Source: an uncultured Syntrophomonadaceae bacterium (lineage in GTDB: Bacteria > Bacillota > Dethiobacteria > DTU022). Taken from it: a stretch of DNA of 64,000 nucleotides. The position numbers and the translations under genes were made by a program. Location: positions 14,808 to 78,807 of the forward strand of contig CAYTER010000003.1 in the NCBI GenBank assembly GCA_964436815.1. The letters are read 5' to 3'. This document shows, one piece after another, positions 30,569 to 63,419 of the stretch (the stretch's first letter is position 1; every line of letters starts with the position of its first letter). Under the pieces are notes generated by a model. The model saw nothing but the letters and a program-made list of their open reading frames with translations. It made no database searches and was not told where the DNA came from.

Positions 30569-31303
30569 ATGAAAATTAAATCATACCTGGATCAGAAATT
30601 AAATGAAGGAGCAGTTCATGTCACTCTTATTGATCCGGCTCGTCAGGCCCCCGAAGCAGCCGGTAGATTAGCCGAAACAGCCCAGGAAGTGGGCAGTGAC
30701 CTGATTTTTGTCGGTGGCTCTTCCGGGGTTAACCAGAACACGCTATCGGAAACAGCTGAATTTGTTAAGCAGAGATCCTCTTTGCCGGTAATCTTTTTCC
30801 CGACAGGAAGCGACTCGATCAGTTTAAACCTCGATGCTTTTTTATTCCTCAGCCTTCTAAACTCGCGCAATTCGAAGTTTATCAGCGGGACACAGGCCAA
30901 AGTGGCGCCGGTTTTAAAAAGACTTGACGTTGAAGTTCTCTCGGTCGGCTTTATCCTTGTTGAACCGGGGATGAAACTGGGTGAAATCGGTGAGGCTGAT
31001 TTGGTGGCCCGCGATAATTTCTGGCAGGCAATCGGTTATGCCCTTACTGCCCAGTATATGGGGATGTCCTATGTCTACCTGGAAGCAGGTAACGGAGCTG
31101 CGCAACCGGTTCCGGCCGGGATGATCCGGGCTGTCAAAAGAGAGATTAACGTACCTTTGATCGTTGGCGGTGGAATCCGTACCGCCATAGATGCCCGTCG
31201 TGTCAGACAGGCTGGCGCCGATATCGTAGTTACCGGAACGGTTATCGAAACTGCCGGTTACCGCGAACGCTTGCGTTCGATCCTCAGCGCGCTCAAAGAC
31301 TAG
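30569..31303 (+). CDS. pcrB: (Hepta/geranylgeranyl)prenylglyceryl phosphate synthase, PcrB/GGGPS family TIM barrel
   Basis: 244 aa with FVGGSSGV and LIVGGGIRT glycerol-phosphate binding motifs typical of PcrB/GGGPS. Confidence 0.8.
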   Translation: MKIKSYLDQKLNEGAVHVTLIDPARQAPEAAGRLAETAQEVGSDLIFVGGSSGVNQNTLSETAEFVKQRSSLPVIFFPTGSDSISLNLDAFLFLSLLNSRNSKFISGTQAKVAPVLKRLDVEVLSVGFILVEPGMKLGEIGEADLVARDNFWQAIGYALTAQYMGMSYVYLEAGNGAAQPVPAGMIRAVKREINVPLIVGGGIRTAIDARRVRQAGADIVVTGTVIETAGYRERLRSILSALKD

Positions 31304-32217
31304 TGCCTGGCACATTCTCCCCCGCGCCCGCTTACCGTTTCCAGGGCATGATCAATAACCGGGGTTAATACTGCCAGGCATTCAGCTACCGCTTTCGGAC
31401 TACCCGGTAAATTGACGATCAAGGTTTTAGCGCTGATCCCGGCGACCCCCCGGGATAACATCGCCTTCGGGGTCGCTGCCGCAGTTTCCCGGCGTATAGC
31501 CTCGGCTATACCGGGCACCAGGCGATCGACCACCTCTAATGTCGCTTCAGGAGTAACATCACGGGGGCTCATACCGGTGCCGCCAGTTGTAAATACAGCA
31601 TCCAGTTCCTTTTGGACCATGGCTCTCATGGTCGTAGCCAGTTGATTCTTTTCATCGGGAACAATAACGGATTCAACCACATCACCCCATGGTAGCAGGA
31701 TTTCTGCGATTGCCGGACCGCTTAAATCTTCACGCTCACCGCAAGATCCCTTATCACTGGCAGTGATTACGCCGAAGCGGTAAGCAGGTCGGATTTCAAG
31801 CGGGTCGCCAACCTTGACCTTTCCCTCAAGCAATACTTCAGCAAAAATGCCCTCACGCGGCATCACACAATCGCCGGCCTGGTAATAGATTGCACAGCGG
31901 TTGTGGCATTCCTTGCCGATTTGAGTCACCCGTAAAATTGCTTTATTGCCGGCCTGCAGCCGGGTACCTACCGGCAGGCTGACGAGGTCGATACCCCTGG
32001 TGGTCAGGTTTTCAGCAAAATCACCCGGCCCAACATCCAGTCCCTTTTCGATCATCTTTGCAATGCTCTCTTCAGCCAATAGACTGACCTGACGATGGGC
32101 GAAACCGGCATGGGCATCGTTTTCGAGCCCTAAATTCTTTAAAAGCAGCGCTTCGCCTACGTTAGATTTGCGTTCGCCTTTTTTGGCACTGGTGCAAACT
32201 GCGATTATTTCAGCCAT
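31300..32217 (-). CDS. mogA: MOSC domain fused to MogA/MoaB-type molybdopterin adenylyltransferase domain
   Basis: The N-terminal half resembles the MOSC beta-barrel with a conserved Cys (…KECHNRCAIY). The C-terminal half has MogA motifs (GVITASDKGS…TTGGTGMSPRD). Its stop overlaps the pcrB stop (CTAG). Confidence 0.8.
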   Translation of the reverse strand: MAEIIAVCTSAKKGERKSNVGEALLLKNLGLENDAHAGFAHRQVSLLAEESIAKMIEKGLDVGPGDFAENLTTRGIDLVSLPVGTRLQAGNKAILRVTQIGKECHNRCAIYYQAGDCVMPREGIFAEVLLEGKVKVGDPLEIRPAYRFGVITASDKGSCGEREDLSGPAIAEILLPWGDVVESVIVPDEKNQLATTMRAMVQKELDAVFTTGGTGMSPRDVTPEATLEVVDRLVPGIAEAIRRETAAATPKAMLSRGVAGISAKTLIVNLPGSPKAVAECLAVLTPVIDHALETVSGRGGECARH

Positions 32218-33215
32218 TAGATCTGCTCCCGGCGGTAGTGCCCTGAGCGTCCTCCCTTCTTCTCCAGCAACCGTATATTGCCGATAATCATCTTTTTATC
32301 AACTGCTTTGCACATATCGTAAATGGTTAAAGCGGCAACGCTTACTCCGGTCAGCGCTTCCATTTCCACCCCGGTCTGACCGGTTAATTTAACCCGGACC
32401 CCAATCTCAATTTTGGGTTCGGGCTGGTCGATTAGATTAAAATCAACCTCGACCCCGGAAATACCGAGTGGATGAGCCATCGGGATCAGGCGTCCGGTTT
32501 CTTTAACTGCCTGCACAGCCGCTACCTGGGCTACAGCCAGAACATCCCCTTTGGCCATTTGACCGGATCTGATCTTTTGTAGAGTCCCGGCAGTCATCAA
32601 AATTTCACCGCGGGCATAGGCTTCGCGCAAGCTCATTTCTTTCGCCGAAACATCAACCATTCGAGGCCTGCCGGATTGATCAAAGTGAGTTAATTCATTG
32701 TTATGCATGTTATTTCCCCTCCTGTCCGGAAAGAAAAGGCTAATTATTAAGTCAGCCTGGGCTTGTGGGTCGTTTAAGTCAATGATAGGCAGTTCAGACG
32801 GGATATTTTTAAGATCGCTGAATAGCGCCACGGTATTCTCCGGCAAAAGCGGCTGCGTGCTAATCGCACTGCGGACTATTTCAATCTTAGGATTAGCGCT
32901 TTTTTTATGACCCTCGATGACAATCAGGTCCAAGTCGCGAAGCAGACCGGCGGCCTGATCAACCCCGCTGGCCAGTTCAGATTTACCATGCAGCAGAAAT
33001 CCGTTGGGAGTAGTAAAGCCGGCTACTTCGGCACCTGCCTGGGCATAACGCCAGCTGTCCTTACCGGGCAGGTCGAGATCATGATGATGCAGGTTTCCCT
33101 TAAGGGCGGCAACCCGCAGTCCTCTTAGTTTTAGTTCGGGCAGCAGTTTTTCAATCACCGTGGTCTTACCGGTGTCTGATTGAGCGGCCACCAAATTTAT
33201 AACCACCGGGGTCAT
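32217..33215 (-). CDS. moaC: MobB (MGD synthesis GTP-binding protein) fused to MoaC (cyclic pyranopterin monophosphate synthase)
   Basis: The N-terminus has a P-loop SDTGKTT (MobB). The C-terminal ~160 aa match MoaC (…GRPRMVDVSAK…MAHPLGISGVEVDF…ALTIYDMCKA). Confidence 0.82.
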   Translation of the reverse strand: MTPVVINLVAAQSDTGKTTVIEKLLPELKLRGLRVAALKGNLHHHDLDLPGKDSWRYAQAGAEVAGFTTPNGFLLHGKSELASGVDQAAGLLRDLDLIVIEGHKKSANPKIEIVRSAISTQPLLPENTVALFSDLKNIPSELPIIDLNDPQAQADLIISLFFPDRRGNNMHNNELTHFDQSGRPRMVDVSAKEMSLREAYARGEILMTAGTLQKIRSGQMAKGDVLAVAQVAAVQAVKETGRLIPMAHPLGISGVEVDFNLIDQPEPKIEIGVRVKLTGQTGVEMEALTGVSVAALTIYDMCKAVDKKMIIGNIRLLEKKGGRSGHYRREQI

Positions 33216-33219
33216 CTGA

Positions 33220-34215
33220 TTAACCTCCCGTTTTGGACATAGTGCGCATGGCGCCCGGCTTAATGGATCCGCAGGAACCGTCGGCAGCCATCTGATGTTC
33301 GACCGGCTTACCGCTCAAAACCGTTTTGATCAACTCTTTTAAGGCATCGTGGTCGTTGATGACCGGTTTAACCGAATACTCGTCCTGCCAATATAGGCAG
33401 GCTTTCAGGTTACCCTCCGCAGTCAGACGCAGCCGGTTGCATTTATCACAGAAATGCCTGCTAATCGGGTGAATCAGGCCGATGGTTCCTCTGCCGCCTT
33501 TGATCGTATAAGATTCAGCCGGTCCGGCTCCACCGGGAAGCGGAGCGGGAGATAACGGCAATCCGGCATTTAATGCGGTTTCTTCGACAAAAGTGAGGGG
33601 CAGGTAATGGTCAAGGTATTTCTGATCGTGATCGCCAATCGGCATGTATTCAATAAAGCGGACATGCAGCGGTTTTTCTAAGGTCAGCCTGATAAAATCC
33701 ATCACTTCGTTGTCATTTATACCTTTCATCAGGACGATATTGATCTTAACCGGGTGCAATCCAAGGGCGAGAGCTGCTTCAATTCCGGCTAAAACCTGTT
33801 CCAGCTCACCGCAGCGGGTGGTTTGGCGATATACTTCAGGTTTTAAACTGTCCAGGCTGATATTGACGCGATCCAGGCCGGCTTCTTTTAGGGCAGCTGC
33901 CTGCTGAGGCAGTAGAATGCCATTCGTGGTCAGAGCCAGGTCCTTGATTCCGGGGATAGCTTTAATTTTGTCAACCAGGTCGGCTAAATTTTTACGGACT
34001 AAGGGTTCGCCACCGGTCAGGCGTATTTTTGAGATACCGAGCTCCGCTCCTGCCCGGACCACAGCGGTGATTTCCTCATAGCTGAGAATATCCCGATGTG
34101 ATACCTGGGCGATGCCGTCCTCTCCCATGCAGTAAAGACAACGCAGGTTACAGCGGTCAGTAACCGATATCCTTAAATAATCGTGAGTTCTTCCGTGTTG
34201 ATCGATAAGTGTCAT
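33220..34215 (-). CDS. moaA: GTP 3',8-cyclase MoaA (radical SAM)
   Basis: CNLRCLYC radical-SAM motif, plus the C-terminal Cys cluster CDKCNRLRLTAEGNLKAC. Confidence 0.92.
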   Translation of the reverse strand: MTLIDQHGRTHDYLRISVTDRCNLRCLYCMGEDGIAQVSHRDILSYEEITAVVRAGAELGISKIRLTGGEPLVRKNLADLVDKIKAIPGIKDLALTTNGILLPQQAAALKEAGLDRVNISLDSLKPEVYRQTTRCGELEQVLAGIEAALALGLHPVKINIVLMKGINDNEVMDFIRLTLEKPLHVRFIEYMPIGDHDQKYLDHYLPLTFVEETALNAGLPLSPAPLPGGAGPAESYTIKGGRGTIGLIHPISRHFCDKCNRLRLTAEGNLKACLYWQDEYSVKPVINDHDALKELIKTVLSGKPVEHQMAADGSCGSIKPGAMRTMSKTGG

Positions 34216-34225
34216 CGCGGTCTCC

Positions 34226-36139
34226 TTAAACCTTTTCTATTCCGGTTATGGTGCCTGCTTCACGCATACTGTAACCTCCGAGGGCTTCAACCTTGTTTTG
34301 AAATGCCGGATCAGCGATAATCCTGAGCAGCGATGAAGCTTCCGGACTTTTTAAAAAATCATTGTTTAGCAGCAGGTCATACCTTTCTTCGACCAGCGGT
34401 ATAAAATCAAGGTTAAAAGCCCTGGCGGCGGACAGGATGCCAAGACCAGCTGAAGCTGTTCCGGCGGCCACAGCGGCAGCAACATTAAGATGAGTATATT
34501 CTTCCCGTTCATAGCCTTTGATCTGGGCCGGGTTTAAACCTGCTTCTTTCAGAAGGTGATCGAATAGCAGACGCGTACCGGCGCCCCTCTGGCGGTTAAT
34601 GAAACCATTAGTCGTCTGTGCCAGGTCGCTAATCGATTTGATTCCTTCCGGATTTCCTGCCGGGACGATCCAACCCTGCATCCTGTATGCCAGGTTAACC
34701 AGGCTAAGATCATGATCCGGCAACATTTTCCTGATGTACGGGATATTGTAATCACCGGTTTCCGGATCAAAGAGATGGACTCCGGCCAGGTGTGCCTGAC
34801 CCTTGCCAATAGCCATTATCCCTCCCATACTGCCCAGATGAGCTGAAGAAAGATTAAGGCTTGAATCTTCCTGCTTAAGAGCCGTGGCCAGCAAATCGAT
34901 GATCAAATCGTGGCTTCCGGCTGCCAGTAAATTATGGCGCAGTTCGCTTTCCGGTTTGTAGAGCTCAACCTCAACCTCTTCATCTTGCTCATATCCCAGT
35001 GAGTTTTCGGGGATGACCAGCAGGCCATCAGCCCTCACCAGGGACATGGTTACGCCGGCGCCACGGGTCAGCGGATTGGCTAGATAACGGTTATTCACGT
35101 AGCCGATAGTCATCCGTACATGTTCCTCAACTCCCATTTCTGATACAACGCGGCGGCCGAGAGTTACTTTCAGCCGGGGGCGCTCAGGAACAGGCAGGCC
35201 AAGGTAACGGCAGATCAGCGGCAGAGCGAACCACTCAAGACTTAAGTAAGCAGATACAGGGTAACCGGGCAGTCCGATTACCGGTTTGTTCTTAACCCGG
35301 CCAAGGATTGTTGGCTTTCCGGGCCTGGTAGCCACCCCATGTAAAAAAACTTCACCCAATTCCTCAATCACCATTGAGGTATAATCCTTTTCTCCGGCCG
35401 ACGACCCGGCATTTATGATCACAATATCGGCAGAATCCAAGGCGTCCAGCAGGGCCTGCTTTATTTTCTCCGGTTCATCCGGCACTATGGGTTTAACCAG
35501 AGGAACAGCACCCCACTGCTCTAAATAAGCAGCGATTACTGTGCTATTGAAGTCGGGCACCTGCCCGTGCTCTCGCCTGTCACTTGGTCCTATAAGGTCG
35601 GAGCCGCTGGGGATAACTGCAACTACCGGTTTTGCCAGAACCTTTATTTCGGTATCCCCCCCAGCCAGTATAGCGCCAAGATCCGGTGGTTTCAGCAGGT
35701 GACAACCAGGAACAATCAGCTCACCGGCCACAATATCCTCACCCACGGCGCGCACATGCTGCCAGGGAGTGGCCGGAGACAGCAGCTCCGCCCTGCCATC
35801 AGTCAACATGTGCAGGTCTTCTATCTTTGCCACGGCATTGAAACCCGGCGGCAGAGGATTGCCGGTGTTTACTGGTATAAAGCCCTGCTGCGGTTCGAGC
35901 GCCAGCGGATTTTGATCGGATGCGCTGAAAGTATCTTCGGCTTTGACGGCGATACCATCCATGGCAGCAGAATGGAAGGCCGGCATTGATAACCGGGCAA
36001 AAACCGGTTCTGCCGTAACCCGATCCAGAGCTTCACCCACAGGGATAGTTTCCACCCGGCGGGGTATGCCGGTTCTTTCCAGGAAGATCTTTAACGCTTC
36101 TGGTCTCGCTGTGTTACTGAGATAAACTTTGCGCATCAC
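34226..36139 (-). CDS. moeA: Molybdopterin molybdo/tungsto-transferase MoeA fused to a C-terminal periplasmic-binding-protein-like (PBP-like) domain
   Basis: The N-terminal ~400 aa have the MoeA fold (…GLPGYPVSAYLS…). The C-terminal ~230 aa have PBP-like/substrate-binding features (…LAYRMQGWIVPAGNPEGIKSISDL…). Confidence 0.8.
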   Translation of the reverse strand: MMRKVYLSNTARPEALKIFLERTGIPRRVETIPVGEALDRVTAEPVFARLSMPAFHSAAMDGIAVKAEDTFSASDQNPLALEPQQGFIPVNTGNPLPPGFNAVAKIEDLHMLTDGRAELLSPATPWQHVRAVGEDIVAGELIVPGCHLLKPPDLGAILAGGDTEIKVLAKPVVAVIPSGSDLIGPSDRREHGQVPDFNSTVIAAYLEQWGAVPLVKPIVPDEPEKIKQALLDALDSADIVIINAGSSAGEKDYTSMVIEELGEVFLHGVATRPGKPTILGRVKNKPVIGLPGYPVSAYLSLEWFALPLICRYLGLPVPERPRLKVTLGRRVVSEMGVEEHVRMTIGYVNNRYLANPLTRGAGVTMSLVRADGLLVIPENSLGYEQDEEVEVELYKPESELRHNLLAAGSHDLIIDLLATALKQEDSSLNLSSAHLGSMGGIMAIGKGQAHLAGVHLFDPETGDYNIPYIRKMLPDHDLSLVNLAYRMQGWIVPAGNPEGIKSISDLAQTTNGFINRQRGAGTRLLFDHLLKEAGLNPAQIKGYEREEYTHLNVAAAVAAGTASAGLGILSAARAFNLDFIPLVEERYDLLLNNDFLKSPEASSLLRIIADPAFQNKVEALGGYSMREAGTITGIEKV

Positions 36140-36154
36140 AAACCTCCACTATGC

Positions 36155-37387
36155 TTACTCCCATAAATAAACCTCGACAGTCTCCCCGGCGCTTAACCCT
36201 TCCTTCTCCGGGGGCACAACCAGCAGTCCGTCTGCGGCGGCCAGGGTCCGCAGCATCCCTGAACGGCCAAAGACCGGGACTGCGCTAAGTCCTCCGGTGG
36301 ACGGGTCTGGTTCCAGTTTAATCCTTATGTAATCAGTACGCCCGGTCCGGGAAGCCACATTGCGGGCCAGGCTGGCCTTTAAGGTCGGGGTCAGCCTTTT
36401 TTTAAGGCGTCCGGAAAGTTGCTCGATGATCGCCCGTCCGAAAAGGGAAAAGATATTGAGGGCAGAAACCGGATGGCCTGGTAATCCAAGCACAGGTTTC
36501 TCGCCGCATTTTGCGACTAAAGTCGGTTTGCCGGGCTGGATGGCAATGCCTTCGATCAGCAGCCCCGGTTGACCCAGCTCTTGCATGGTGCGGGCAGTAA
36601 AATCGCGGCTGCCGACAGAGCTGCCGCCGGAAAAAACTAAAAAATCAACTTTGACCAATAGTTCACGGCTTTTTGCCAGAAAAACATCAAATTGATCAGG
36701 CAGGATGCCACCATACCTGAAACCAGCCCCGTATTGTTCGGCCAGGTAAAGCAGAGCTGGAGCGTTACTGTCCCTGATTTGCCCGGGCTTAAGTTCCCCT
36801 GATTCGTAAGGAACCAATTCATCGCCACTGGAAAAAAAACCGACCAGCGGCTTCCGGTGAACGGCTACCGCTGACGAACCGATTGAAGCGAGCAGGCCAA
36901 TCTCAGGCGCCCGAAGGAAATGTCCCGCTTCAAATACGACGTCTCCGGCTTTTAAGTCCTCGCCACGGTGAATGACATTTTCACCGGGGGCAACCTGCCG
37001 GTAACTGTTGACAATATTACCGGCCACTTCAGTATCTTCAATCATGATTACAGCATCGGCATTATCTGGCAGCATCCCACCGGTGTGAACCAGGCAGCAT
37101 TGCCCGTCAGAAATGGGAGGAGCGCTTTTGCCCATCAGCACTTCTCCGACCAGTTCAAACATGGCCGGCATACTTTCACTGGCACCGAAAGTTTCGCGGG
37201 CGTTCACAGCATAACCGTCAACTGTTGAGCGGTTAAAACCGGGCACATCTTCCGGTGACCTGATCTTTTCAGCCAGATAGCGCCCTCCGGCCTGTTCAAT
37301 AACAATTATTTCAGCGGGCAGGGCTTTAAACTCACTGGCAATAAGCTTATTAACAGCAACCGGGTCGCTTACCCGCATTAATTTCAT
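36155..37387 (-). CDS. moeA: Molybdopterin molybdotransferase MoeA (second paralog, stand-alone)
   Basis: 410 aa with MoeA domains (…GLPGHPVSALNIF…). It is the first gene of the operon and has a GAGGTG RBS. Confidence 0.88.
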   Translation of the reverse strand: MKLMRVSDPVAVNKLIASEFKALPAEIIVIEQAGGRYLAEKIRSPEDVPGFNRSTVDGYAVNARETFGASESMPAMFELVGEVLMGKSAPPISDGQCCLVHTGGMLPDNADAVIMIEDTEVAGNIVNSYRQVAPGENVIHRGEDLKAGDVVFEAGHFLRAPEIGLLASIGSSAVAVHRKPLVGFFSSGDELVPYESGELKPGQIRDSNAPALLYLAEQYGAGFRYGGILPDQFDVFLAKSRELLVKVDFLVFSGGSSVGSRDFTARTMQELGQPGLLIEGIAIQPGKPTLVAKCGEKPVLGLPGHPVSALNIFSLFGRAIIEQLSGRLKKRLTPTLKASLARNVASRTGRTDYIRIKLEPDPSTGGLSAVPVFGRSGMLRTLAAADGLLVVPPEKEGLSAGETVEVYLWE

Positions 37388-45390: not shown

Positions 45391-45510
45391 ATAGTAGCAC
45401 CAAGCTGGTATCGCAAAGGGGGTGCTCGATGAATTAGTGATGGGTAGATAAGAGTTTAAGAACAACTAAGTTAGTTGGGCAGTAAGTATCATAAAGAGGA
45501 GGAGAATAGT

Positions 45511-49436: not shown

Positions 49437-49488
49437 CAAGGGTAAGCGACATTTGACAGCAAAGCTATTATTCCAGGGAGGTTCGGTA

Positions 49489-50250: not shown

Positions 50251-50292
50251 CCATCATCATATTCAGTTCACATCAGGCTGGAGGGTTTGTGT

Positions 50293-51165: not shown

Positions 51166-51188
51166 AATAAAAGGTTAGGAGGATTTTC

Positions 51189-53009: not shown

Positions 53010-53266
53010 TTGTCATTTCAGTTAAATACACTGGTTTGCTCAGGAGTGAAGCCGGTAACAGCGAAGAAAAATGGCCGCTAAAAGAAGGTGCCACTCTGGA
53101 AAAGCTACTGGCAGAAGTTGCATTGAAGTACAATGTGCAATTAGATGACCACGCTAAGTTTATTATTGTCTTTAACGACCATGGTATCAAATTTGAACAG
53201 TGGTCTAAACAGGTTCTCCGGAATAATGATCAGGTGCTTATCCTACCGTCAATTTCGGGAGGTTGA
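53006..53266 (+). CDS. MoaD/ThiS-family ubiquitin-like sulfur-carrier protein (C-terminal Gly-Gly)
   Basis: 86 aa ending …ISGG. TTG start with CAGGAGG RBS, overlapping the aor stop. Confidence 0.75.
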   Translation: MIVISVKYTGLLRSEAGNSEEKWPLKEGATLEKLLAEVALKYNVQLDDHAKFIIVFNDHGIKFEQWSKQVLRNNDQVLILPSISGG

Positions 53267-53268
53267 GA

Positions 53269-54273: not shown

Positions 54274-55279
54274 TTTGGTTGGCGTGGGAGTAATTGGAAC
54301 GGGACGAGCTGGTATGGTTCATATAGCTAACTTTGCAGAGAATGTGCCTCGTGCCCGTTTAGTAGCAGTTTGCGATTTAGATGAAAAAAGCGTACAGGAA
54401 ACGGCCAATAAATGGAATGCAGATCCATATACAAACCCCGAAGATTTTTTAATGCACCCTTTACTTGATGCTGTGGTTATTGCCGCGCCAACCTTTGTCC
54501 ATGCAGAACTGGTTATTGCAGCTGCAGAAGCGAAAAAGGCAATTCTCTGTGAGAAACCTTTAACTATAACTGAAGAAGAAGCAGCGAGAATGGATAAAGC
54601 GGTGAAACAAAACAAAGTGCCCTTTTTGATGGGTTTTATGCGCCGCTTCGATCAAAGTTTTATTCGTGCACGGGAGATAATACAAAGTGGTGACATCGGA
54701 GAACCTTTGATGATTAAATCAACCGGTAAAGGTCCTGGTCTTCCGCCAGCTTGGAATCTTGATATTGATAGAAGTAATGGTATGTTGGCAGAAGTAAACA
54801 GCCATGATTTTGATTGTGTCCGTTTTTTATCCGGTGAGGAGTATAAGTGGGTATTTGCCACTGCCCGTAACAATAAATGTCCGGATTATAAGACGGAATA
54901 CCCTCAATTTTACGATACTGCTATCGTTACTTTCGGCATGACCGGTAAAGTGATAGGTACTATTGACGGCTCTTGCCCGGCTGACTACGGCTATGATGCC
55001 AGGGTTGAAATCCAGGGCGCTGATGGCGTTCTTTTTATTGGCAACATAGCTAAAAAGGGAGTCGTTGTTGGTCGCAAGGGTAAAGGTGTGGCAGAAGAGA
55101 TCGTTGACAGCTGGCGCTCACTTTTTCGCGAGGCTTACCTGGCGGAAGATCGCTGCCTTATCAATTCTTTGCTAAAGGGAATAGAACCGCCTTCGACTCT
55201 AAAAGATGGCTGGCAGGCGTTAAAGGCAGTTCGAGCTTCAAACCGTTCGATTCGCAGTGGAAAGGTTGAAGAGGTATGA
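54260..55279 (+). CDS. Gfo/Idh/MocA-family oxidoreductase (sugar / inositol dehydrogenase-like)
   Basis: N-terminal Rossmann motif VGVIGTGRAG and the EKP motif (LCEKPL). GTG start at 54260; GTG 54251 is an alternative. Confidence 0.82.
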   Translation: MKANDLVGVGVIGTGRAGMVHIANFAENVPRARLVAVCDLDEKSVQETANKWNADPYTNPEDFLMHPLLDAVVIAAPTFVHAELVIAAAEAKKAILCEKPLTITEEEAARMDKAVKQNKVPFLMGFMRRFDQSFIRAREIIQSGDIGEPLMIKSTGKGPGLPPAWNLDIDRSNGMLAEVNSHDFDCVRFLSGEEYKWVFATARNNKCPDYKTEYPQFYDTAIVTFGMTGKVIGTIDGSCPADYGYDARVEIQGADGVLFIGNIAKKGVVVGRKGKGVAEEIVDSWRSLFREAYLAEDRCLINSLLKGIEPPSTLKDGWQALKAVRASNRSIRSGKVEEV

Positions 55280-55296
55280 ATGAAGGAATAGAAAAA

Positions 55297-56358
55297 ATGA
55301 AAGCAGCAGTATTTTGTGACGGAATTATTAAAGTTAAAAATATTCCCCGGCCACAGCCAAAAGAAAACGAAATGGTTATAAAAGTGGAAGCTGCAGCTAT
55401 ATGCGCTACCGATCTGAAGATTTGGAAAAGAGGGCACCGCAATATTGCCTCTGGAAGTGAGACTATTCTGGGTCATGAGGTGGTCGGTATTGTATTTGAG
55501 GTTGGCTCAGAGATCGATAATAATTGGTTAGGGAAAAGAGTTGTCATACCACCCAATGTAGGTTGTGGCTTTTGTCCGGCCTGTGAGGCAGGATGGGATA
55601 GTTATTGTCCCACGTACAAAGCCTATGGCGTCGGCCTGCCGGGAAGCTTTGCTGAATATATGTTGGTAAGAGCACCGTCAGATAGATCGGAAACGCTGAT
55701 CACTGTAGCGGGTCATATCCCTACAAAAATTGCAGTTTTGGCCGAAGCAGTATCCTGTTGTTACCGCGGCTTGTATGATTGTAACCTGAAGCCTGAAGAA
55801 AAAGTTTTAATTATGGGAGCAGGCCCAATGGGGATACTTAGCGTCGTTACTGCCAAAGCAATGGGTGCTTCAACAATTATAAGCGCTGATTTTCTTGAAG
55901 AACGCAGGGATGCAAGCGAAAAATTTGGCACAACGTATGCTTTGAATCCGGCAGAAGATCATTTTGTCGAAGCAGTGAAAGAAGTAAGCGATGGCTGGGG
56001 CGTTGATGTGGTCATGGTCACTGCTCCTTTCGCAAAGGCGCAACTCCAGGGTATCATGGCTGCTGCTGTGGGAGGTCGGATTAATCTTTTTGCCGGACTT
56101 TCTCCGGATGATCGATTTGATGATTTTCCCTCAAACCTGGTTCACTACCGTGGTTTGAAAGTTCTCGGAAGCACAGGGACTACTTCGCAAGTCATGCAGA
56201 CTGTGGTAAATATGATGACTGAAGGGCATCTTGAGATCTTGCAAGAGGCGGTAACAGCAGTTTATGCGTTAGAAGATATGGAAAAAGCGTTAGATAAGGC
56301 CGGAAGCGGTAAGGAAATAAAAGTTATGGTAGTGCCTGACAGTAAGATGATAGTGTAA
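55297..56358 (+). CDS. Zinc-dependent alcohol/polyol dehydrogenase (MDR family, sorbitol/threonine DH-like)
   Basis: GHEVVG zinc motif, structural-zinc Cys cluster (CGFCPACEAGWDSYC) and GAGPMG Rossmann. Start at ATG 55297; ATG 55276 is the longest-ORF alternative. Confidence 0.85.
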   Translation: MKAAVFCDGIIKVKNIPRPQPKENEMVIKVEAAAICATDLKIWKRGHRNIASGSETILGHEVVGIVFEVGSEIDNNWLGKRVVIPPNVGCGFCPACEAGWDSYCPTYKAYGVGLPGSFAEYMLVRAPSDRSETLITVAGHIPTKIAVLAEAVSCCYRGLYDCNLKPEEKVLIMGAGPMGILSVVTAKAMGASTIISADFLEERRDASEKFGTTYALNPAEDHFVEAVKEVSDGWGVDVVMVTAPFAKAQLQGIMAAAVGGRINLFAGLSPDDRFDDFPSNLVHYRGLKVLGSTGTTSQVMQTVVNMMTEGHLEILQEAVTAVYALEDMEKALDKAGSGKEIKVMVVPDSKMIV

Positions 56359-56395
56359 CAAACTATTTCCTGTTTGTATTAGGAGAGGATCAAAT

Positions 56396-57943
56396 ATGGG
56401 CAAGACTTATTTACTGGGGATTGATTTAGGCACCATGGGAACTAAGGCAGCTCTTTACGATCTGGAAGGTAAAGCCCTGGCAGAGGCGTACGAGGAATCA
56501 ATACTTCGCTATCCGAAAATAGGCTTTGTAGAACAAGATTTTGAAGAAATATATAGCTCAGCAGTTAATTGTATTAAAGAAGTGTTAGAGAAAAGCGGCA
56601 TCGAAAGTGGTGATGTGGCGGCGCTAGCGTTCAGCAGTCAAATGTCAGGTATAGGGATGATTGATAAAGATTGGACACCGGCAGCCCATTATGACAGCTG
56701 GCTCGATACACGTTGTGAGTCAGCTTTCTCCTTAATGGAGCCTTTTTGCAATGATTTTACGGCAAGTAGTGGCTGTCCGCCTACATACGCTCATGCAGCG
56801 AAAATTATCTGGTGGAAGAATAACCAACCGGAAGTATTTAAAAACACAGCTCGATTTATAGTGCCCCTTGCCTACGTTGCAGGTAAGATGGCTGGATTAA
56901 AAGCTGAAGAAGCCTATATTGACCTCACATGCCTGCATTTCTCAGGGTTTAGCAATACCGGGGAGTCGAAGTGGTCAGAAGAGTTGCTTAATAAATTTGA
57001 AATACCAGCAGAGAAAATGCCGCGAATAATATCTCCGACAGAGATTATCGGAAAAGTTAATCGTGGAGCGGCTCGGGCAACCGGTTTAAAAGAAGGCACA
57101 CCAATTGCTGCCGGGGCAGGGGATCAGGCAGCAGCATCTTTAGGCGCAGGAGTGGTTGAACCGGGAGATGTTTTTGATAGTGCCGGGACCGCATCCGTAT
57201 TTTCTGTCTGTGTAAAAAGTTTTTTGCCTGACGTTAGGAATAAAGTTGTCCTGGCAACTCATGGTGTCATACCCGGCACTTACTATGCCCTTTCATTTAT
57301 CAACGGTGGCGGTTTAAATTTACGATGGTTCCGTGATACTTTTGGTCTTCAGGAAAAAAACGAGGCAGCGTCAACCGGTAAAGAAGTTTATCAGATATTT
57401 GATCAAATGGCTGCTCAATCCCCTGCAGGTTCAGGGGGCACAATATTTATTCCTCACCTGCAAGGCAGAGTTGTTCCACCGGATGCTTCTTTACGAGGTC
57501 TCTGGGCTGGCTTCACCTGGTCGCATAACCGTGGCCACCTGTTCAGGGCGATGATGGAAGGTGTCGCTTATGAGTACGCATACTATTTGCAGATAGAAAA
57601 AGAGCTTCACCCTGAACTTGAATGTCGGGAAGTAAGGGTGATAGGTGGTGGTGCGTCAAGCGATCTGTGGAATCAGATCAAAAGTGATGTTTTAGATATA
57701 CCATATTGCCGAATAAACCGATCTGAGGTCGGAACCTGGGGATGTGCTATGATTGCCGGCAAAGCTGTTGGGATTTTTGACGATTTAAGAATAGTTGCTA
57801 AAGAATCAACGCAGATCAGCCACCGACTTGATCCGCGACCTCACTATTCCCAGTTTTACCAGCCTTATGTAGACATTTACAGGCAGATTATCGAGGGATA
57901 CGCTGAAATTTTTAATGGTTTAAATGAGCTGCCTTTGGAGTAA
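56396..57943 (+). CDS. FGGY-family carbohydrate kinase (xylulokinase/glycerol kinase-like)
   Basis: N-terminal LGIDLGTMGTKAAL and C-terminal GGGASSDLWNQI FGGY signatures. Confidence 0.88.
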   Translation: MGKTYLLGIDLGTMGTKAALYDLEGKALAEAYEESILRYPKIGFVEQDFEEIYSSAVNCIKEVLEKSGIESGDVAALAFSSQMSGIGMIDKDWTPAAHYDSWLDTRCESAFSLMEPFCNDFTASSGCPPTYAHAAKIIWWKNNQPEVFKNTARFIVPLAYVAGKMAGLKAEEAYIDLTCLHFSGFSNTGESKWSEELLNKFEIPAEKMPRIISPTEIIGKVNRGAARATGLKEGTPIAAGAGDQAAASLGAGVVEPGDVFDSAGTASVFSVCVKSFLPDVRNKVVLATHGVIPGTYYALSFINGGGLNLRWFRDTFGLQEKNEAASTGKEVYQIFDQMAAQSPAGSGGTIFIPHLQGRVVPPDASLRGLWAGFTWSHNRGHLFRAMMEGVAYEYAYYLQIEKELHPELECREVRVIGGGASSDLWNQIKSDVLDIPYCRINRSEVGTWGCAMIAGKAVGIFDDLRIVAKESTQISHRLDPRPHYSQFYQPYVDIYRQIIEGYAEIFNGLNELPLE

Positions 57944-57987
57944 TCATCAACAATTAAGGGGATAAAACAGAGAGAAGGTGCAAAAAC

Positions 57988-58641
57988 ATGATCTCCAAGG
58001 TAAAAAATTTTAATCGTATTTATAAAGCCGGAATTATAGCTGTTGTTAGAGCTGATTCGTTCGAACAGGCGCTGGCGACATCAGAAGCCTTAAAAAATGG
58101 CGGAGTAGATGTTATTGAGATTACTCTGACTGTTCCCGGCGCTATAGATGTAATTAAAGAGCTGGCAAAAACATATCGGCACGGTGAAATACTACTTGGG
58201 GCAGGAACGGTACTCGATTCTGAGACCGCCCGCATCTCTCTGATGGCAGGAGCTGAATTTATTGTCAGCCCGTCTCTTAATCTAGATGTAATAAAGCTTT
58301 GCAATCGCTATCAAAAAATTTGTATGCCTGGATGCATGACAGTTACAGAGATTGTTTCTGCACTTGATGCCGGCGCGGATTTAATTAAACTTTTTCCTGG
58401 TAATTTTTTTGGCCCTTCAATAATAAAGACTTTAAAAGGGCCTTTACCCCAGGCTGATTTTGTTCCTACCGGAGGTGTTACCCTTGAGAATATTCAGGAT
58501 TGGATTAACAACGGATGCATTGCAGTTGGTATTGGAGGCGAGCTGACCAAAGGTGCTGCTGATGGGGATTACCATCGAATCACAGAAACAGCCCGACAAT
58601 TTGTAGAGCAAATCCGTGCAGTACGCCATTTAGAAGGATAA
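57988..58641 (+). CDS. eda: KDPG/KHG aldolase (Eda family)
   Basis: 217 aa TIM-barrel aldolase with Schiff-base lysine context (…DLIKLFPG…). Confidence 0.88.
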   Translation: MISKVKNFNRIYKAGIIAVVRADSFEQALATSEALKNGGVDVIEITLTVPGAIDVIKELAKTYRHGEILLGAGTVLDSETARISLMAGAEFIVSPSLNLDVIKLCNRYQKICMPGCMTVTEIVSALDAGADLIKLFPGNFFGPSIIKTLKGPLPQADFVPTGGVTLENIQDWINNGCIAVGIGGELTKGAADGDYHRITETARQFVEQIRAVRHLEG

Positions 58642-58665
58642 TAATGCCAGGAGGTTTGAGAGTTG

Positions 58666-59538
58666 ATGAAATATGCTATCAGCAGTTGGATTTATGGAGA
58701 CGAGAGTTTAGAGTTAATTTTTATGCGACTGGCAAGATACGGATACGATGCAGTTGAGCTGGAAGGTGAACCGGATAAGTACGATGTAAAAGAAATCTTA
58801 GAGTTATGTCGCCGGTACAGCATTTCTATATCAGGAATTGCCGGGATGTATCCATGGCCGACTGGGGAGAGGGACCTAGCTTCACCAGATCCAGAGATTA
58901 GAAAAAAGGCAGTAAAGTATTTGCTTTCCTGCATTGATTTTGCCCATGATCTGTCAGCACCGCTGGTGATAGTAGTCCCTTCTGCTGTGGGGAAAACCAT
59001 GCCTTTTCCAATCTTGAACGGAGAAGCGGATATATCAGCATGGGATGAAACGGTAGATAGGGAATGGGCTTATGCACAGGATTCAGTTGGTAAATGTTCT
59101 GAAGCTGCCAGCGAAAAAGGAATCATTCTGGCTGTCGAACCAATTAACCGATACGAAACTTTTCTTATTAATACCTGTAGCCAAGGTTTGCAGTTTATTT
59201 CACCATTTGACAAGAAAACTGTAAAAATTCATCTTGATACATTTCATATGAATATAGAGGAAAAAAGCCTGAATCAGGCTATCCTTGAGGCAGGAGACTT
59301 GCTTGCTAATCTACACGTAGCTGACAGTAATCGTCAGGCGGTTGGAAAAGGACACACAGATTTCAACGAAATAATTCGCAGTCTCAAAAGTATAAGTTAT
59401 ACAGGAGTTATTTCTTTGGAACCACTTCCGCCGGTTCCTAATCCTTATGTGGCCATGAAACTTGATCGCTATAAAGATATGCGAGATGATATAGCTCGTG
59501 AAAGTATCGAAACGCTGAAGAAAATCGCAGGATATTAG
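58666..59538 (+). CDS. Sugar phosphate isomerase/epimerase (xylose isomerase-like TIM barrel), paralog 2
   Basis: Clear paralog of 50293-51165 (MKYAISSWIYG…EPINRYETFLIN…HLDTFHMNIEE). Confidence 0.8.
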   Translation: MKYAISSWIYGDESLELIFMRLARYGYDAVELEGEPDKYDVKEILELCRRYSISISGIAGMYPWPTGERDLASPDPEIRKKAVKYLLSCIDFAHDLSAPLVIVVPSAVGKTMPFPILNGEADISAWDETVDREWAYAQDSVGKCSEAASEKGIILAVEPINRYETFLINTCSQGLQFISPFDKKTVKIHLDTFHMNIEEKSLNQAILEAGDLLANLHVADSNRQAVGKGHTDFNEIIRSLKSISYTGVISLEPLPPVPNPYVAMKLDRYKDMRDDIARESIETLKKIAGY

Positions 59539-59591
59539 ATAAGCACTTGCTGATTATTCAGAGGTTAATTAAGCATATAGGAGGTTTTGCT

Positions 59592-60161
59592 ATGCAAGAA
59601 ATAAAAATTATGGATCCTTTTTTCGTGGAAATTAGCTGTGAAGACGGTAACGTATCGCCTCCGGCAAGACTAATTAGGCGCAGGCTTAGCGATCTGGCTG
59701 GTCTGTTTTATGATCAGGATGCTTATAACAGTGCTCTGGCAGATGACGACCCAGTTCTCTATGAGGTTTATGAGGTTCGGGTGCCGGAAGAAGAAGGTCA
59801 TCTTCTATCATGTACAACAGTTATTTACCCAGGGAAAGTAGGAAAAGAATACTATTTTACCAAAGGACATTTCCACGTTCTAGAAAACCGGGCTGAAATA
59901 TATACATGTTTACGGGGGCAGGGTTATCTTTTAATGACCACCAGAGCTGGCAGAAGTCACAGCATAGCCATGAGGCCAGGAGTTTCTGCCTATATTCCGC
60001 CATACTGGTCACACCGTACACTAAACTGTGGAGAAGAACCCTTTATTTTTTATGGAGTATGGCCGGGAGATGCTGGTCATGATTATGAAAGTATTGTAGA
60101 GCAAGAGTTTCCACTGCGAGTTTTTGAAGAAAATGGGCAGCCGGCAGTTAAAAAATCATAG
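59592..60161 (+). CDS. Cupin-type glucose-6-phosphate isomerase family protein (archaeal-type cPGI)
   Basis: 189 aa from ATG 59592 with GGAGGT RBS. His/Glu metal-site motif TKGHFHxxxxxxE…YIPPYWSHRT, as in archaeal cupin PGIs. Confidence 0.75.
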   Translation: MQEIKIMDPFFVEISCEDGNVSPPARLIRRRLSDLAGLFYDQDAYNSALADDDPVLYEVYEVRVPEEEGHLLSCTTVIYPGKVGKEYYFTKGHFHVLENRAEIYTCLRGQGYLLMTTRAGRSHSIAMRPGVSAYIPPYWSHRTLNCGEEPFIFYGVWPGDAGHDYESIVEQEFPLRVFEENGQPAVKKS

Positions 60162-60434
60162 ATGATAGTTTGAACATCAAAACATTTTAATACATGCTAT
60201 TATAGAAAAGGTTTTGGATTTCATCACTTTACCTACCCAACAATTGCTTGATGCGATCAATCCGGCAGCTTAATTTGTTATTTACTGTTTCGGATGTTAT
60301 AGTACATAAAAAGTACTCAATCTGCATAAATCCTTATATTAGATAGAGCAGGATTCCGTCAATATTTCAAGTAAAATTTGCAATTGCGAACAGGCAATTA
60401 CTCCTTTTAACGTACAATAAAAGGAGGCAGGGTC

Positions 60435-62872: not shown

Positions 62873-62957
62873 CCCAGGCTCAAACTAGAATAAACTTTGA
62901 AAATACTTTTTTAAACAACATGGTGAACTCGCAGATCTTAAAGGAGGATGAGCAGGG

Positions 62958-63419
62958 GTGCCGCAAGTGGAACTGAATACCGAAGCGCCGGATTTTATAC
63001 TCGATGATTTTCGCGGTAAAGCATTCCGGCTTTCGGATTACCGGGGCGAAAAAAATATTTTACTGGTGCTAAACCGTGGGTTTTTTTGACCTTTCTGCCG
63101 CGCGCACCTGGCGCAGTTGCGCCGCGATCATGATCAGTTTGCTGAACGAGATACCCTGGTTGTTACTATCGGCCCGGAAGGAAGTAAAGCCTTCAGCCGC
63201 TACTGGGAAGAAAACGATCTGCCCTTCATCGGCCTGCCGGATGAGCATCACCGGGTATTAAAACTTTATGGACAACAGGTTAAACTGTTTAAATTCGGAC
63301 GCCAACCGGCCCAGATGTTGATCGATAAAAATGGCCTGCTGCGTTATGTTCATTATGGGCATTCGATGCAGGACATTCCTTCTACAAAAGAGATGACTGA
63401 TCTGCTGGATAACCTTTAA
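62958..63419 (+). CDS. Peroxiredoxin-like (AhpC/TSA / redoxin) thiol peroxidase, candidate selenoprotein with in-frame UGA (Sec) at 63087-63089
   Basis: GTG start with AAGGAGG RBS. The N-terminal 43 codons (…APDFILDDFRGKAFRLSDYRGEKNILLVLNRGFF) and the C-terminal 110 codons (PFCRAHLAQL…) are both Prx-like and share one frame. Only a single TGA interrupts them, at the catalytic Cys position (FF-U-PFC). A GC-rich hairpin follows 6-38 nt downstream. Confidence 0.6.

What the first reader, a model, noticed from the sequence alone, without database searches (positions are those of the whole stretch)
62958..63419. Peroxiredoxin-like gene interrupted by a single in-frame UGA at the peroxidatic-Cys position: candidate selenoprotein with a downstream SECIS-like hairpin
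Reading from GTG 62958, a typical Prx/redoxin N-terminus (APDFILDDFRGKAFRLSDYRGEKNILLVLNRGFF) runs into TGA at 63087-63089. It then continues in the same frame as PFCRAHLAQLRRDHDQF…, which is the 100-aa ORF at 63117. AhpC/TSA proteins have F-x-F-x-C-P at this point. Here it reads F-F-U-P-F-C, a U-x-x-C redox motif. A GC-rich stem-loop (ctgccgcgcgcacctggcgcagttgcgccgcg, 63096-63127) starts 7 nt after the UGA, which is the usual spacing for a bacterial SECIS. Conservation on both sides of one stop, at exactly the redox-active residue, is the classic selenoprotein signature and gene callers would miss it.
Basis: partly seen in the sequence, partly recalled or inferred. Interest (0 to 1): 0.8.

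Follow-up and report, generated by a model that had tools for sequence, protein, structure and literature searches.

The report
Missed selenoprotein gene, peroxiredoxin-like UxxC type
This is a real but ordinary case: a small redox-enzyme gene whose in-frame "stop" codon almost certainly encodes selenocysteine, belonging to a selenoprotein family predicted since 2004 that gene callers still cut in two.

Summary
GTG 62958 to TAA 63419 is one 153-codon AhpC/TSA-fold gene with a single in-frame TGA at 63087-63089.

All 52 close homologues found in genomes of at least six phyla carry TGA at the same codon. A few database homologues carry Cys there.

A 6-bp hairpin with an AGUU loop (63109-63124, 20-35 nt after the UGA) is conserved. 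It shows compensatory GC/AU swaps. Only three codons in the whole gene are frozen to a single synonymous codon, and all three lie in this stretch. TGA is an ordinary stop in 12 of 59 window genes.

- **Position of Sec.** Sec is not at the peroxidatic-Cys position. It aligns with the Thr of the peroxiredoxin TxxC motif, and Cys47 aligns with the peroxidatic Cys. The site is a thioredoxin-like UxxC.
- **Which hairpin.** The conserved SECIS is the overlapping smaller hairpin.

This matches the published, experimentally untested family "Prx-like thiol:disulfide oxidoreductase" (PF00578, UxxC).

I could not test for selenocysteine machinery in the source genome. The window and all fetched flanks contain none.

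Verdict: a new member of a known kind, of modest interest.

The parts
62943..62947 (+). Shine-Dalgarno-like GGAGG, 10 nt upstream of the GTG start
   Evidence: Read directly from the sequence. The start at GTG 62958 gives an N-terminus MPQVELN..., which matches the homologues' MPQVELH.../MAQVELN....
62958..63419 (+). Full-length coding sequence: 153 codons plus stop, a Prx-like (AhpC/TSA fold) protein with Sec at codon 44
   Evidence: Translation. Pfam AhpC-TSA spans residues 7-131 across the TGA, E 1.1e-20. Homologues are 47-76% identical over the full length. A sister strain keeps the frame and the TGA, with 11 synonymous and 5 non-synonymous differences.
63087..63089 (+). In-frame UGA, the predicted selenocysteine codon (residue 44), followed by C
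   Evidence: TGA at the aligned codon in 52 of 52 close homologues from genome contigs. TGC in Cys forms L064, L065 and L066. TGA is a normal stop for 12 of 59 window genes, and none of those stops is followed by C.
63096..63098 (+). Cys47 codon (TGC), the second residue of the U-P-F-C motif and the position that aligns with the peroxidatic Cys of AhpE/BCP
   Evidence: PDB alignments. Invariant Cys in 45 database homologues. The codon is frozen as TGC in 53 of 53 genes.
63096..63106 (+). Possible small upstream hairpin (U-A, G-C, C-G around a 5-nt loop); tentative
   Evidence: Alignment columns 10-12 pair with 18-20 in 42-45 of 45 distinct sequences, but without covariation. The synonymous or variable third positions C12 and G18 are conserved although the residue encoded at codon 49 (alignment columns 16-18) varies.
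63109..63124 (+). Conserved SECIS core: a 6-bp stem UGGCGC/GCGCCG with an AGUU tetraloop (63115-63118). The loop begins 25 nt after the UGA.
   Evidence: 98.5% of cells are paired across 45 distinct sequences. Two pairs switch GC to AU and CG to UA in 13 distinct sequences. All slid-register controls collapse to 19-58% paired. Loop and closing codons CAG and TTG are invariant, with 1 of 2 and 1 of 6 synonymous codons used.
63117..63119 (+). TTG (Leu54) inside the SECIS loop, used by gene callers as a false start for the truncated 100-aa 'redoxin' ORF
   Evidence: ORF list. Database entry P0009 is exactly this 100-aa fragment.

Best explanation
62958-63419 is a single gene for a cytosolic, 153-residue protein with a peroxiredoxin (BCP-like) fold. 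Its active site is a thioredoxin-type U44-P-F-C47 motif at the N-terminus of the first long helix.

**How the UGA is read (shown by comparison, biochemistry inferred).** The UGA at 63087-63089 is decoded as selenocysteine. The ribosome reaches the UGA, and the mRNA hairpin at 63109-63124 (AGUU loop) recruits SelB carrying GTP and Sec-tRNA(Sec). Sec is then inserted instead of terminating translation.

**What the protein does (inferred).** Sec44 sits at the exposed helix N-cap and acts as the nucleophile. It attacks a substrate disulfide, or possibly a peroxide or sulfenic acid. Cys47 resolves the intermediate to an intramolecular selenenylsulfide. A thioredoxin-like reductant then reduces that bond.

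The gene belongs to the published, computationally predicted family 'Prx-like thiol:disulfide oxidoreductase' (PF00578, UxxC). Automatic annotation splits it into a 43-aa and a 100-aa ORF.
For: - **One domain across the stop.** Pfam AhpC-TSA covers 7-131, E 1.1e-20.
- **The TGA is ancestral, not a lesion.** It is at the same codon in 52 of 52 close homologues from Chloroflexota, Bacillota, Smithella/Syntrophaceae, Actinobacteria, Acidobacteriota and Calditrichaceae. Of 45 full-length database proteins, 38 show W at the site (code-4 reading of TGA) and 5 show Cys.
- **Standard code.** TGA ends 12 of 59 confident genes in the window.
- **The RNA element.**
  - The core helix at columns 23-28/33-38 is paired in 98.5% of cells, against 19-58% in slid controls.
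  - Two adjacent pairs change on both sides in 13 distinct sequences. This couples Ala-Arg codons (GCG...CGC) with Met-His codons (AUG...CAU).
  - Of 53 conserved degenerate codons, only TGC47, CAG53 and TTG54 are fixed to one codon. Elsewhere the top-codon fraction is 0.23-0.78.
  - The distant Cys form L066 has lost the hairpin, with 2 of 6 pairs left. The recent Cys form L064/L065 still has it as a relic. Zhang et al. 2006 describe the same pattern in other families (PMC1794560).
- **Purifying selection in this lineage.** A sister strain at 96.5% nucleotide identity keeps the TGA. It has 4 synonymous and 2 non-synonymous changes before the TGA, 7 and 3 after it, and none between 63087 and 63130.
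- **Active-site geometry and fold.**
  - U44 aligns with Thr, and C47 with the peroxidatic Cys, of AhpE and Bcp1.
  - In the AlphaFold model of the natural Cys form (pLDDT 88), the helix starts at residue 45.
  - The best structural matches are BCP/PrxQ (TM 0.87), AhpE (0.83) and ResA (0.71-0.76).
- **Literature.** Prx-like UxxC selenoproteins are explicitly distinguished from TxxU peroxiredoxins (PMC1088965, PMC2398784, PMC9312934, PMC13188914).
Against: - **No machinery seen.** No selA, selB, selD or tRNA-Sec is in the 64-kb window, in 20 kb of the sister contig or in any fetched flank. The source genome is an uncultured Bacillota MAG that is not in the genome collection. Sec machinery in this organism therefore remains untested.
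- **The conserved hairpin is not the favoured fold here.** In this sequence alone it has only about 1.5% ensemble probability. A competing helix (63099-63106 with 63118-63126) is more stable: the 60-nt stretch folds at -17.2 kcal/mol with the competing helix and -13.5 with the conserved hairpin enforced.
- **No support from single-sequence folding or Rfam.** The region's folding energy is not better than shuffles. No Rfam SECIS model matches.
- **Weak independence of the covariation.** The compensatory AU variants are confined to Bacillota and may reflect a single event.
- **No functional data.** There is no biochemical information for any member of the family. No conserved gene neighbourhood hints at a substrate.
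Confidence: 0.82

Rival explanations
1. One reading: a true selenoperoxiredoxin. Sec44 is the peroxidatic residue that reduces peroxides, and the protein works as a BCP/AhpC-type peroxidase.
For: The overall fold is closest to BCP/PrxQ peroxiredoxins (TM 0.87). PDB sequence hits are led by AhpE and Bcp. An invariant Arg115 in G-R-x-P-A-Q lies near the position of the catalytic Arg of Prx. Sec reacts readily with peroxides (general knowledge). A UxxC site could support peroxidase chemistry even though it is not the canonical one.
Against: U44 aligns with the Thr, not the Cys, of the Prx P-x3-T-x2-C signature. The signature Pro is replaced by the invariant Arg40, and the Thr by Sec. Known Sec-peroxiredoxins are TxxU, as in L053, L054 and L056 here (TPG-U) and in PMC1088965 and PMC9312934. 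Scores against NCBIfam peroxiredoxin equivalogs are far below their cut-offs: 39.8 against 140, 28.2 against 260, and 21.8 against 270.
Confidence: 0.2
2. A relic gene. The family is a genuine selenoprotein family, but this genome has lost the Sec machinery. Translation then stops at 63089 and the locus is non-functional.
For: No sel genes or tRNA-Sec appear in the window or the sister flank. In this sequence the conserved hairpin is out-competed by an alternative fold.
Against: Both halves remain intact and change mostly at synonymous sites between two strains. The TGA and the 44 nt after it are unchanged. Loss of the trait is normally followed by Sec-to-Cys conversion or decay (PMC1794560), and neither is seen. 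The 64-kb window covers only part of the source genome, so the absence of sel genes here carries almost no weight.
Confidence: 0.08
3. A nonsense-mutation pseudogene or a sequencing error, with no recoding at all.
For: A single in-frame stop is what a recent lesion would look like in one sequence.
Against: The same TGA is found in 52 of 52 homologues across phyla. It is also in six independent assemblies of this and the sister strain. Only the segment after the stop shows frozen synonymous sites and a covarying hairpin.
Confidence: 0.01
4. UGA is read as Trp or Gly (reassigned code), or there are two separate products: a 43-aa peptide plus a 100-aa protein started at TTG 63117.
For: Many database entries translate the site as W. 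Gene callers report the 100-aa ORF.
Against: TGA terminates 12 of 59 window genes. The homologues come from many phyla that use the standard code. TTG 63117 has no ribosome-binding site and lies in the hairpin loop. A 100-aa fragment would lack beta-strands 1-3 and the whole UxxC site. Cys, not Trp, replaces the residue in natural variants.
Confidence: 0.02

Closest known systems
Prx-like thiol:disulfide oxidoreductase selenoprotein family (PF00578, UxxC/UxxU). Kryukov & Gladyshev 2004 is cited as its source in PMC9312934 and PMC13188914. It is 'Prx-like 1' in the GOS analysis (PMC2398784).
   Same: AhpC/TSA (PF00578) domain. Sec is the first residue of a thioredoxin-like UxxC motif rather than TxxU. 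A bacterial SECIS-type hairpin with a G in a small apical loop follows shortly after the UGA. Cys homologues exist. The family occurs in anaerobes, including Syntrophaceae and Syntrophomonadaceae (PMC1794560).
   Different: I could not retrieve the family's reference sequence (WP_010940744.1), so orthology with the Geobacter proteins is not shown. The subfamily here has its own signature: N-R-G-F-x-U-P-F-C, G-R-x-P-A-Q and H-Y-G-H-S-M-x-D-I-P. It is almost always the Sec form. No member has been tested experimentally.
Sec-containing peroxiredoxin (PrxU/BCP type, TxxU), for example from Eubacterium acidaminophilum.
   Same: Same fold superfamily (TM up to 0.87 to BCP). Both are small cytosolic redox proteins with one in-frame UGA in the first-helix active site.
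   Different: In PrxU, Sec replaces the peroxidatic Cys itself (TPG-U). Here Sec is three residues earlier, at the Thr position, and the Cys is kept. The Prx Pro and Thr are replaced by Arg and Sec. The NCBIfam peroxi_PrxU score is 21.8 against a cut-off of 270.
SelL / SelL-related redox proteins (NCBIfam NF040769)
   Same: Best NCBIfam match (E 2e-18). These are Prx-like proteins with a Sec-containing CxxC-type motif.
   Different: The score of 66.6 is below the family cut-off of 120, and the match covers only residues 9-105. This protein is therefore not a member.
ResA/TlpA-type thiol-disulfide oxidoreductases (CxxC, AhpC/TSA-Redoxin fold)
   Same: A CxxC-type motif at the same structural position. 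There is detectable sequence and structural similarity.
   Different: Those proteins are membrane-anchored and extracytoplasmic. This one has no hydrophobic N-terminal segment and resembles BCP more closely than ResA (TM 0.87 against 0.71-0.76). Its score is below the family cut-off (41.9 against 170).
Bacterial SECIS elements (E. coli fdhF type; bSECIS consensus of Zhang & Gladyshev)
   Same: The hairpin lies inside the coding sequence just 3' of the UGA and has a small apical loop containing G-U. [quoted passage not shown]
   Different: The core is very short: 6 bp plus a tetraloop. The mini-helix starts 19 nt after the UGA, against 11 nt in fdhF (recalled from memory, not tested here). No Rfam model covers it. 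SelB binding is inferred.

Membership tests
Bacterial selenoprotein gene (UGA-Sec recoding) | In-frame UGA conserved at the same codon in homologues, with coding conservation on both sides | tested here: met
   52 of 52 close homologues carry it. The Pfam domain spans the stop.
Bacterial selenoprotein gene (UGA-Sec recoding) | Homologues with Cys at the Sec position | tested here: met
   P0007, P0033, P0044, P0045 and P0050 have Cys. TGC was verified in the DNA of L064, L065 and L066.
Bacterial selenoprotein gene (UGA-Sec recoding) | SECIS hairpin shortly downstream of the UGA, with a small apical loop containing G | tested here: met
   63109-63124 has an AGUU loop. It is supported by covariation and by frozen synonymous sites. 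Caveat: it is not the MFE fold of this single sequence.
Bacterial selenoprotein gene (UGA-Sec recoding) | selA, selB, selC (tRNA-Sec) and selD present in the same genome | not testable with these tools
   None are in the window or in any fetched locus. The source genome is not in the searchable genome collection. Only +/-10 kb of related contigs can be read.
Bacterial selenoprotein gene (UGA-Sec recoding) | Selenium demonstrated in the protein | not testable with these tools
   This needs 75Se labelling or mass spectrometry.
Bacterial selenoprotein gene (UGA-Sec recoding) | UGA is otherwise a stop codon in the organism | tested here: met
   12 of 59 window genes end in TGA.
Prx-like thiol:disulfide oxidoreductase selenoprotein (PF00578, UxxC) | PF00578 AhpC/TSA domain | tested here: met
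   E 1.1e-20 and 74.3 bits, against a cut-off of 26.
Prx-like thiol:disulfide oxidoreductase selenoprotein (PF00578, UxxC) | Sec as the first residue of a thioredoxin-like UxxC motif (not TxxU) | tested here: met
   U44-P-F-C47. U aligns with the Prx Thr and C47 with the Prx peroxidatic Cys. The helix begins at residue 45.
Prx-like thiol:disulfide oxidoreductase selenoprotein (PF00578, UxxC) | Sequence relationship to the family's reference protein (WP_010940744.1, Geobacter sulfurreducens) | not tested
   The reference sequence could not be fetched with the available tools.
Peroxiredoxin proper (Prx; BCP/AhpE/AhpC) | Active-site signature P-x3-T/S-x2-C(peroxidatic) | tested here: not met
   The site reads R40-x3-U44-x2-C47. 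Pro is replaced by the invariant Arg and Thr by Sec.
Peroxiredoxin proper (Prx; BCP/AhpE/AhpC) | Score above the curated family cut-offs | tested here: not met
   BCP NF006960 scores 39.8 against 140, PrxQ 28.2 against 260 and PrxU 21.8 against 270.
Peroxiredoxin proper (Prx; BCP/AhpE/AhpC) | Prx fold | tested here: met
   Foldseek TM is 0.81-0.88 to BCP structures and 0.83 to AhpE.
SelL-related redox protein (NF040769) | Score at or above the curated cut-off | tested here: not met
   66.6 bits against a cut-off of 120.

The most novel reading that the evidence does not exclude
This may be more than another Prx-like UxxC selenoprotein. The subfamily (N-R-G-F-x-U-P-F-C ... G-R-x-P-A-Q ... H-Y-G-H-S-M-x-D-I-P) could be a distinct, almost obligately Sec-dependent cytosolic enzyme on a BCP scaffold. 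Two of the four peroxiredoxin catalytic residues (Pro, Thr) have been replaced by Arg and Sec, while the peroxidatic-position Cys and an Arg are kept. That would be a hybrid selenenylsulfide catalytic centre with an unknown substrate. In addition, its SECIS visibly dictates protein sequence: residues 52 and 55 switch together between Ala/Arg and Met/His to keep two base pairs.
Probability: 0.3. Interest if true: 0.5.

Novelty: new member of a known kind. Interest (0 to 1): 0.3.

Why it matters
**Annotation.** This gene and most of its thousands of relatives sit in databases as 100-110-aa 'redoxin domain' fragments, or as full-length proteins with a spurious Trp at the catalytic position. NCBIfam has no model that passes its cut-off for the subfamily.

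**Biology.** The gene marks the source organism, an uncultured Bacillota lineage, as a probable selenium user. It also adds a clean example of a coding-region SECIS that constrains both synonymous sites and amino-acid choice.

It does not change what is known about selenoprotein families. The class has been described since 2004-2005 and is still listed as 'predicted with high confidence' in 2026 (PMC13188914). The open question it makes approachable is biochemical: what a UxxC site on a peroxiredoxin scaffold actually reduces.

Tried and rejected
- **Rfam.** At gathering thresholds over the whole window, and at E up to 10 over 63040-63200, there is no SECIS family hit, only two chance matches.
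- **Single-sequence folding.** It gives no support: z -0.05. It also favours a non-conserved alternative helix.
- **Sec machinery.**
  - ARAGORN finds no tRNA in the window or in 56 loci.
  - Pfam scans of 20 window proteins find Moco biosynthesis genes, a tungsten aldehyde oxidoreductase and transporters, but no SelA, SelB or SelD.
  - tblastn with E. coli SelA, SelB and SelD against the window and all loci finds only the EF-Tu paralogue.
- **Source organism.** Exact look-ups returned no names or accessions. The best named SecY hits say only 'Firmicutes/Bacillota bacterium'. The source genome is not in genome contigs (best hit 64% identity). I did not walk along the 361-kb sister contig, because the look-up cap allows about 140 kb with a low chance of success.
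- **Other selenoprotein candidates.** A scan of all six frames for ORF pairs split by TGA found none convincing.
- **Gene neighbourhood.** Clustering 713 flanking ORFs from 53 loci found no recurrent neighbour. The only large cluster is the antisense shadow of the gene itself. A DegV neighbour appears in only 4 loci.
- **Rejected readings.** Pseudogene, reassigned genetic code, and two separate ORFs. See the rival explanations.

Full report
**1. What is in the sequence**

From GTG 62958 the + strand reads VPQVELNTEAPDFILDDFRGKAFRLSDYRGEKNILLVLNRGFF. It then meets TGA at 63087-63089 and continues in frame as PFCRAHLAQLRRDHDQF... to TAA 63417-63419. A GGAGG lies 10 nt upstream of the GTG.

Mechanical ORF calling gives a 43-aa ORF (62958-63089) and a 100-aa ORF that starts at TTG 63117. 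With the TGA read as Cys, the 153-residue product matches Pfam AhpC-TSA over residues 7-131 (profile 2-124 of 124, E 1.1e-20) and Redoxin (E 9.8e-15). One domain therefore runs straight across the stop.

**2. The TGA is ancestral and conserved**

A search of one genome per species found 57 loci. Fifty-two of them encode close homologues (48-64% identity over the full length). They come from Chloroflexota/Anaerolineae, Bacillota/Clostridia, Smithella and other Deltaproteobacteria, Actinobacteria/Coriobacteriia, Acidobacteriota and Calditrichaceae. All 52 have TGA at the aligned codon.

In the protein database, most of the best hits are fragments of about 100-113 aa that cover only the C-terminal 59-69% of the query. 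Full-length hits come mostly from short contigs. Of 45 full-length hits, 38 have W at the site, which is TGA translated under code 4. Five have Cys, one Arg and one Leu.

In the window itself TGA is a normal terminator for 12 of 59 confident genes. None of those stops is followed by C, whereas the in-frame TGA is. A reassigned code and a recent nonsense mutation are therefore excluded.

**3. The RNA element**

I aligned 60 nt from the UGA for the window plus 49 homologues; the alignment is gapless. It shows a hairpin at columns 23-28 and 33-38 with the invariant loop AGUU. In the window this is 63109-63124, with the loop at 63115-63118.

- 98.5% of cells in the core helix are paired. Sliding the 3' arm by 1-3 columns drops the pairing of the whole tested structure to 19-58%.
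- Two adjacent pairs switch GC to AU and CG to UA in 13 distinct sequences, with G-U intermediates in 6.
- The switch couples amino acids. Met-Ala-Gln-Leu-Arg (AUG GCG CAG UUG CGC) becomes Met-Met-Gln-Leu-His (AUG AUG CAG UUG CAU). All AU variants are Bacillota, so this may be a single evolutionary event.

As an independent control I examined all 53 codon positions where the amino acid is at least 85% conserved and degenerate, across 53 genes. Fifty of them use every or several synonymous codons (top-codon fraction 0.23-0.78). Only three are frozen to one codon: Cys47 TGC, Gln53 CAG and Leu54 TTG, the last being 1 of 6 Leu codons. All three lie 10-33 nt after the UGA.

TGC, together with the conserved G at column 18, could form a second small hairpin at 63096-63106. 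That hairpin has no covariation and remains tentative.

The Cys forms behave as expected for a SECIS:
- A distant Cys form (L066, 47% identity, TGC) keeps only 2 of the 6 pairs and a different peptide.
- A recent Cys form (L064/L065, TGC) still has the whole hairpin as a relic. Zhang et al. 2006 describe this pattern in other families (PMC1794560).

Caveats on the RNA element:
The 60-nt stretch folds at -17.2 kcal/mol with that helix and -13.5 with the conserved hairpin enforced. That helix excludes the conserved hairpin, which has about 1.5% ensemble probability in isolation.
- The region does not fold better than shuffles, z -0.05.
- Rfam has no matching model.

Support for the SECIS is therefore comparative, not thermodynamic.

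**4. Evidence that the gene is alive in this lineage**

Six independent assemblies carry this gene or a sister-strain version. The sister version (L061-L063) differs at 16 of 462 nt, and the TGA is kept. Changes are 4 synonymous and 2 non-synonymous in the 43 codons before the TGA, and 7 and 3 after it. There are none between 63087 and 63130.

**5. Where Sec sits, and what the protein is**

phmmer alignments to solved structures place residue 44 (U) opposite the Thr of the peroxiredoxin T-x-x-C motif. They place Cys47 opposite the peroxidatic Cys:
- AhpE reads ...FFPLAFTGICQGELDQLR, against ...LNRGFFUPFCRAHLAQLR here.
- Bcp1 reads DTPGS, where the peroxidatic position is Ser.

The peroxiredoxin signature P-x3-T-x2-C is thus R40-x3-U44-x2-C47 here, and R40 and C47 are invariant. 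True Sec-peroxiredoxins picked up in the same scan carry TPG-U, that is, Sec at the peroxidatic position (L053, L054, L056).

An AlphaFold2 model of the natural Cys form P0007 (62% identical to the window protein; pLDDT 88, pTM 0.86) starts the first long helix at residue 45. Residue 44 is therefore the helix N-cap, as for the nucleophilic Cys of CxxC proteins. Foldseek ranks BCP/PrxQ structures first (TM 0.81-0.88), then AhpE (0.83) and ResA (0.71-0.76).

NCBIfam gives no match above its cut-offs. The best is 'SelL-related redox protein', at 66.6 against 120. There is no N-terminal hydrophobic segment, so the protein is cytosolic.

The site is a thioredoxin-like UxxC on a peroxiredoxin scaffold.

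**6. Comparison with what is known**

This combination is exactly what the literature calls a Prx-like protein or Prx-like thiol:disulfide oxidoreductase.
- The GOS analysis lists Prx-like 1 (pfam00578, UxxC) with 225 sequences (PMC2398784).
- Reviews from 2022 and 2026 list it as predicted with high confidence (PMC9312934, PMC13188914).
- It was reported in Geobacter, Syntrophus aciditrophicus and Desulfotalea, with a 'distant' form in Syntrophomonas wolfei (PMC1794560).

No member has been characterised biochemically. I could not fetch the reference sequence, so whether this subfamily is orthologous to the Geobacter proteins is open.

**7. Mechanism**

Shown by comparison: conserved UGA, SECIS, Cys alternates, UxxC at a helix N-cap on a BCP-like fold.

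Inferred:
- SelB carrying GTP and Sec-tRNA(Sec) binds the 63109-63124 hairpin while the ribosome has the UGA in the A site, and Sec is inserted.
- Sec44 then acts as the nucleophile, and Cys47 resolves the intermediate to a selenenylsulfide.
- A thioredoxin-type reductant reduces that bond.

I put disulfide (or sulfenate) reduction at about 60%, peroxidase chemistry at about 20-25%, and the rest unknown. Gene context gives no help. Neighbours are not conserved. Here the gene sits between DegV genes and a DUF1475 gene.

**8. What could not be done**

The key refutation test, Sec machinery in the same genome, could not be run.
- The window has no tRNA.
- Pfam scans and tblastn with E. coli SelA, SelB and SelD found no sel genes. 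The only hit was SelB to its paralogue EF-Tu.
- The organism is an uncultured Bacillota known only from MAGs and metagenomes, and it is absent from the searchable genome collection.

Because the window is only 64 kb, this absence means little.

**9. Verdict**

This is a genuine selenoprotein gene that annotation misses. It is very likely functional and belongs to a known predicted family: a new member of a known kind. Its placement of Sec and its choice of hairpin are not. Interest is modest, at 0.3.

Noticed in passing
window 44153-60394: A 16.2-kb block with lower G+C (0.42-0.45 against about 0.50). It carries a GntR/UTRA regulator, a sugar-type ABC transporter, an SDR, a xylose-isomerase-like TIM-barrel protein and a tungsten-type aldehyde:ferredoxin oxidoreductase (51189-53009), among others. 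The sister contig L061 lacks it and has about 190 bp in its place, which makes it a strain-variable island.
   Followed up: partly
window 43939-44024 (-), with ORF 43594-43890 (-): A c-di-GMP-I riboswitch (78 bits) lies directly upstream of a 98-aa ORF with no Pfam hit on record for its 97-aa counterpart in the sister contig. The C-terminus of the ORF is hydrophobic. The riboswitch sits at the left edge of the variable island and is shared with the sister strain.
   Followed up: no
window 37441-37560 (-), with genes 37387..31300 (-): A Moco/tungsten-cofactor riboswitch (76.8 bits) heads an operon. The operon holds moeA, a moeA-PBP fusion, moaA, a mobB-moaC fusion and a MOSC/MoCF protein. Together with the AOR gene in the island, this suggests molybdenum or tungsten enzymes are important in this organism.
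   Followed up: no
L053 (~3130), L054, L056 (Evansella clarkii NZ_KV917376.1): The same scan picked up a different selenoprotein type: BCP/PrxQ peroxiredoxins with TGA at the true peroxidatic position (..YFYPKDNTPG-U-T..). One is in a cultured Bacillus-group species. L055 is the Cys counterpart (TPGC).
   Followed up: no
L064/L065 (ERZ27247850 k141_1080407; JGI 3300027896): A Sec-to-Cys convert of the family (TGC) still carries the complete SECIS hairpin. It lies next to a reverse-transcriptase (RVT_1) gene, a DSBA gene and a C_GCAxxG_C_C gene. The last is listed as a selenoprotein family in PMC9312934, where a 'DsbA-like' family is also mentioned.
   Followed up: no
database proteins P0001-P0045: 38 of 45 full-length database entries for this family carry Trp at the catalytic position, because TGA was translated under code 4 on short contigs. 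One has Arg and one has Leu. This is a systematic annotation artefact that would mislead profile building.
   Followed up: partly
window 10325-10404 (+) and 1-29400: An S10-Clostridia ribosomal-protein leader lies at the head of the S10/spc/alpha cluster, with its score just at threshold (35.5 against 35.1). The first 29 kb holds the canonical rpoB-rpoC-rpsL-fusA-tuf ribosomal-protein region, with steady positive GC skew.
   Followed up: no
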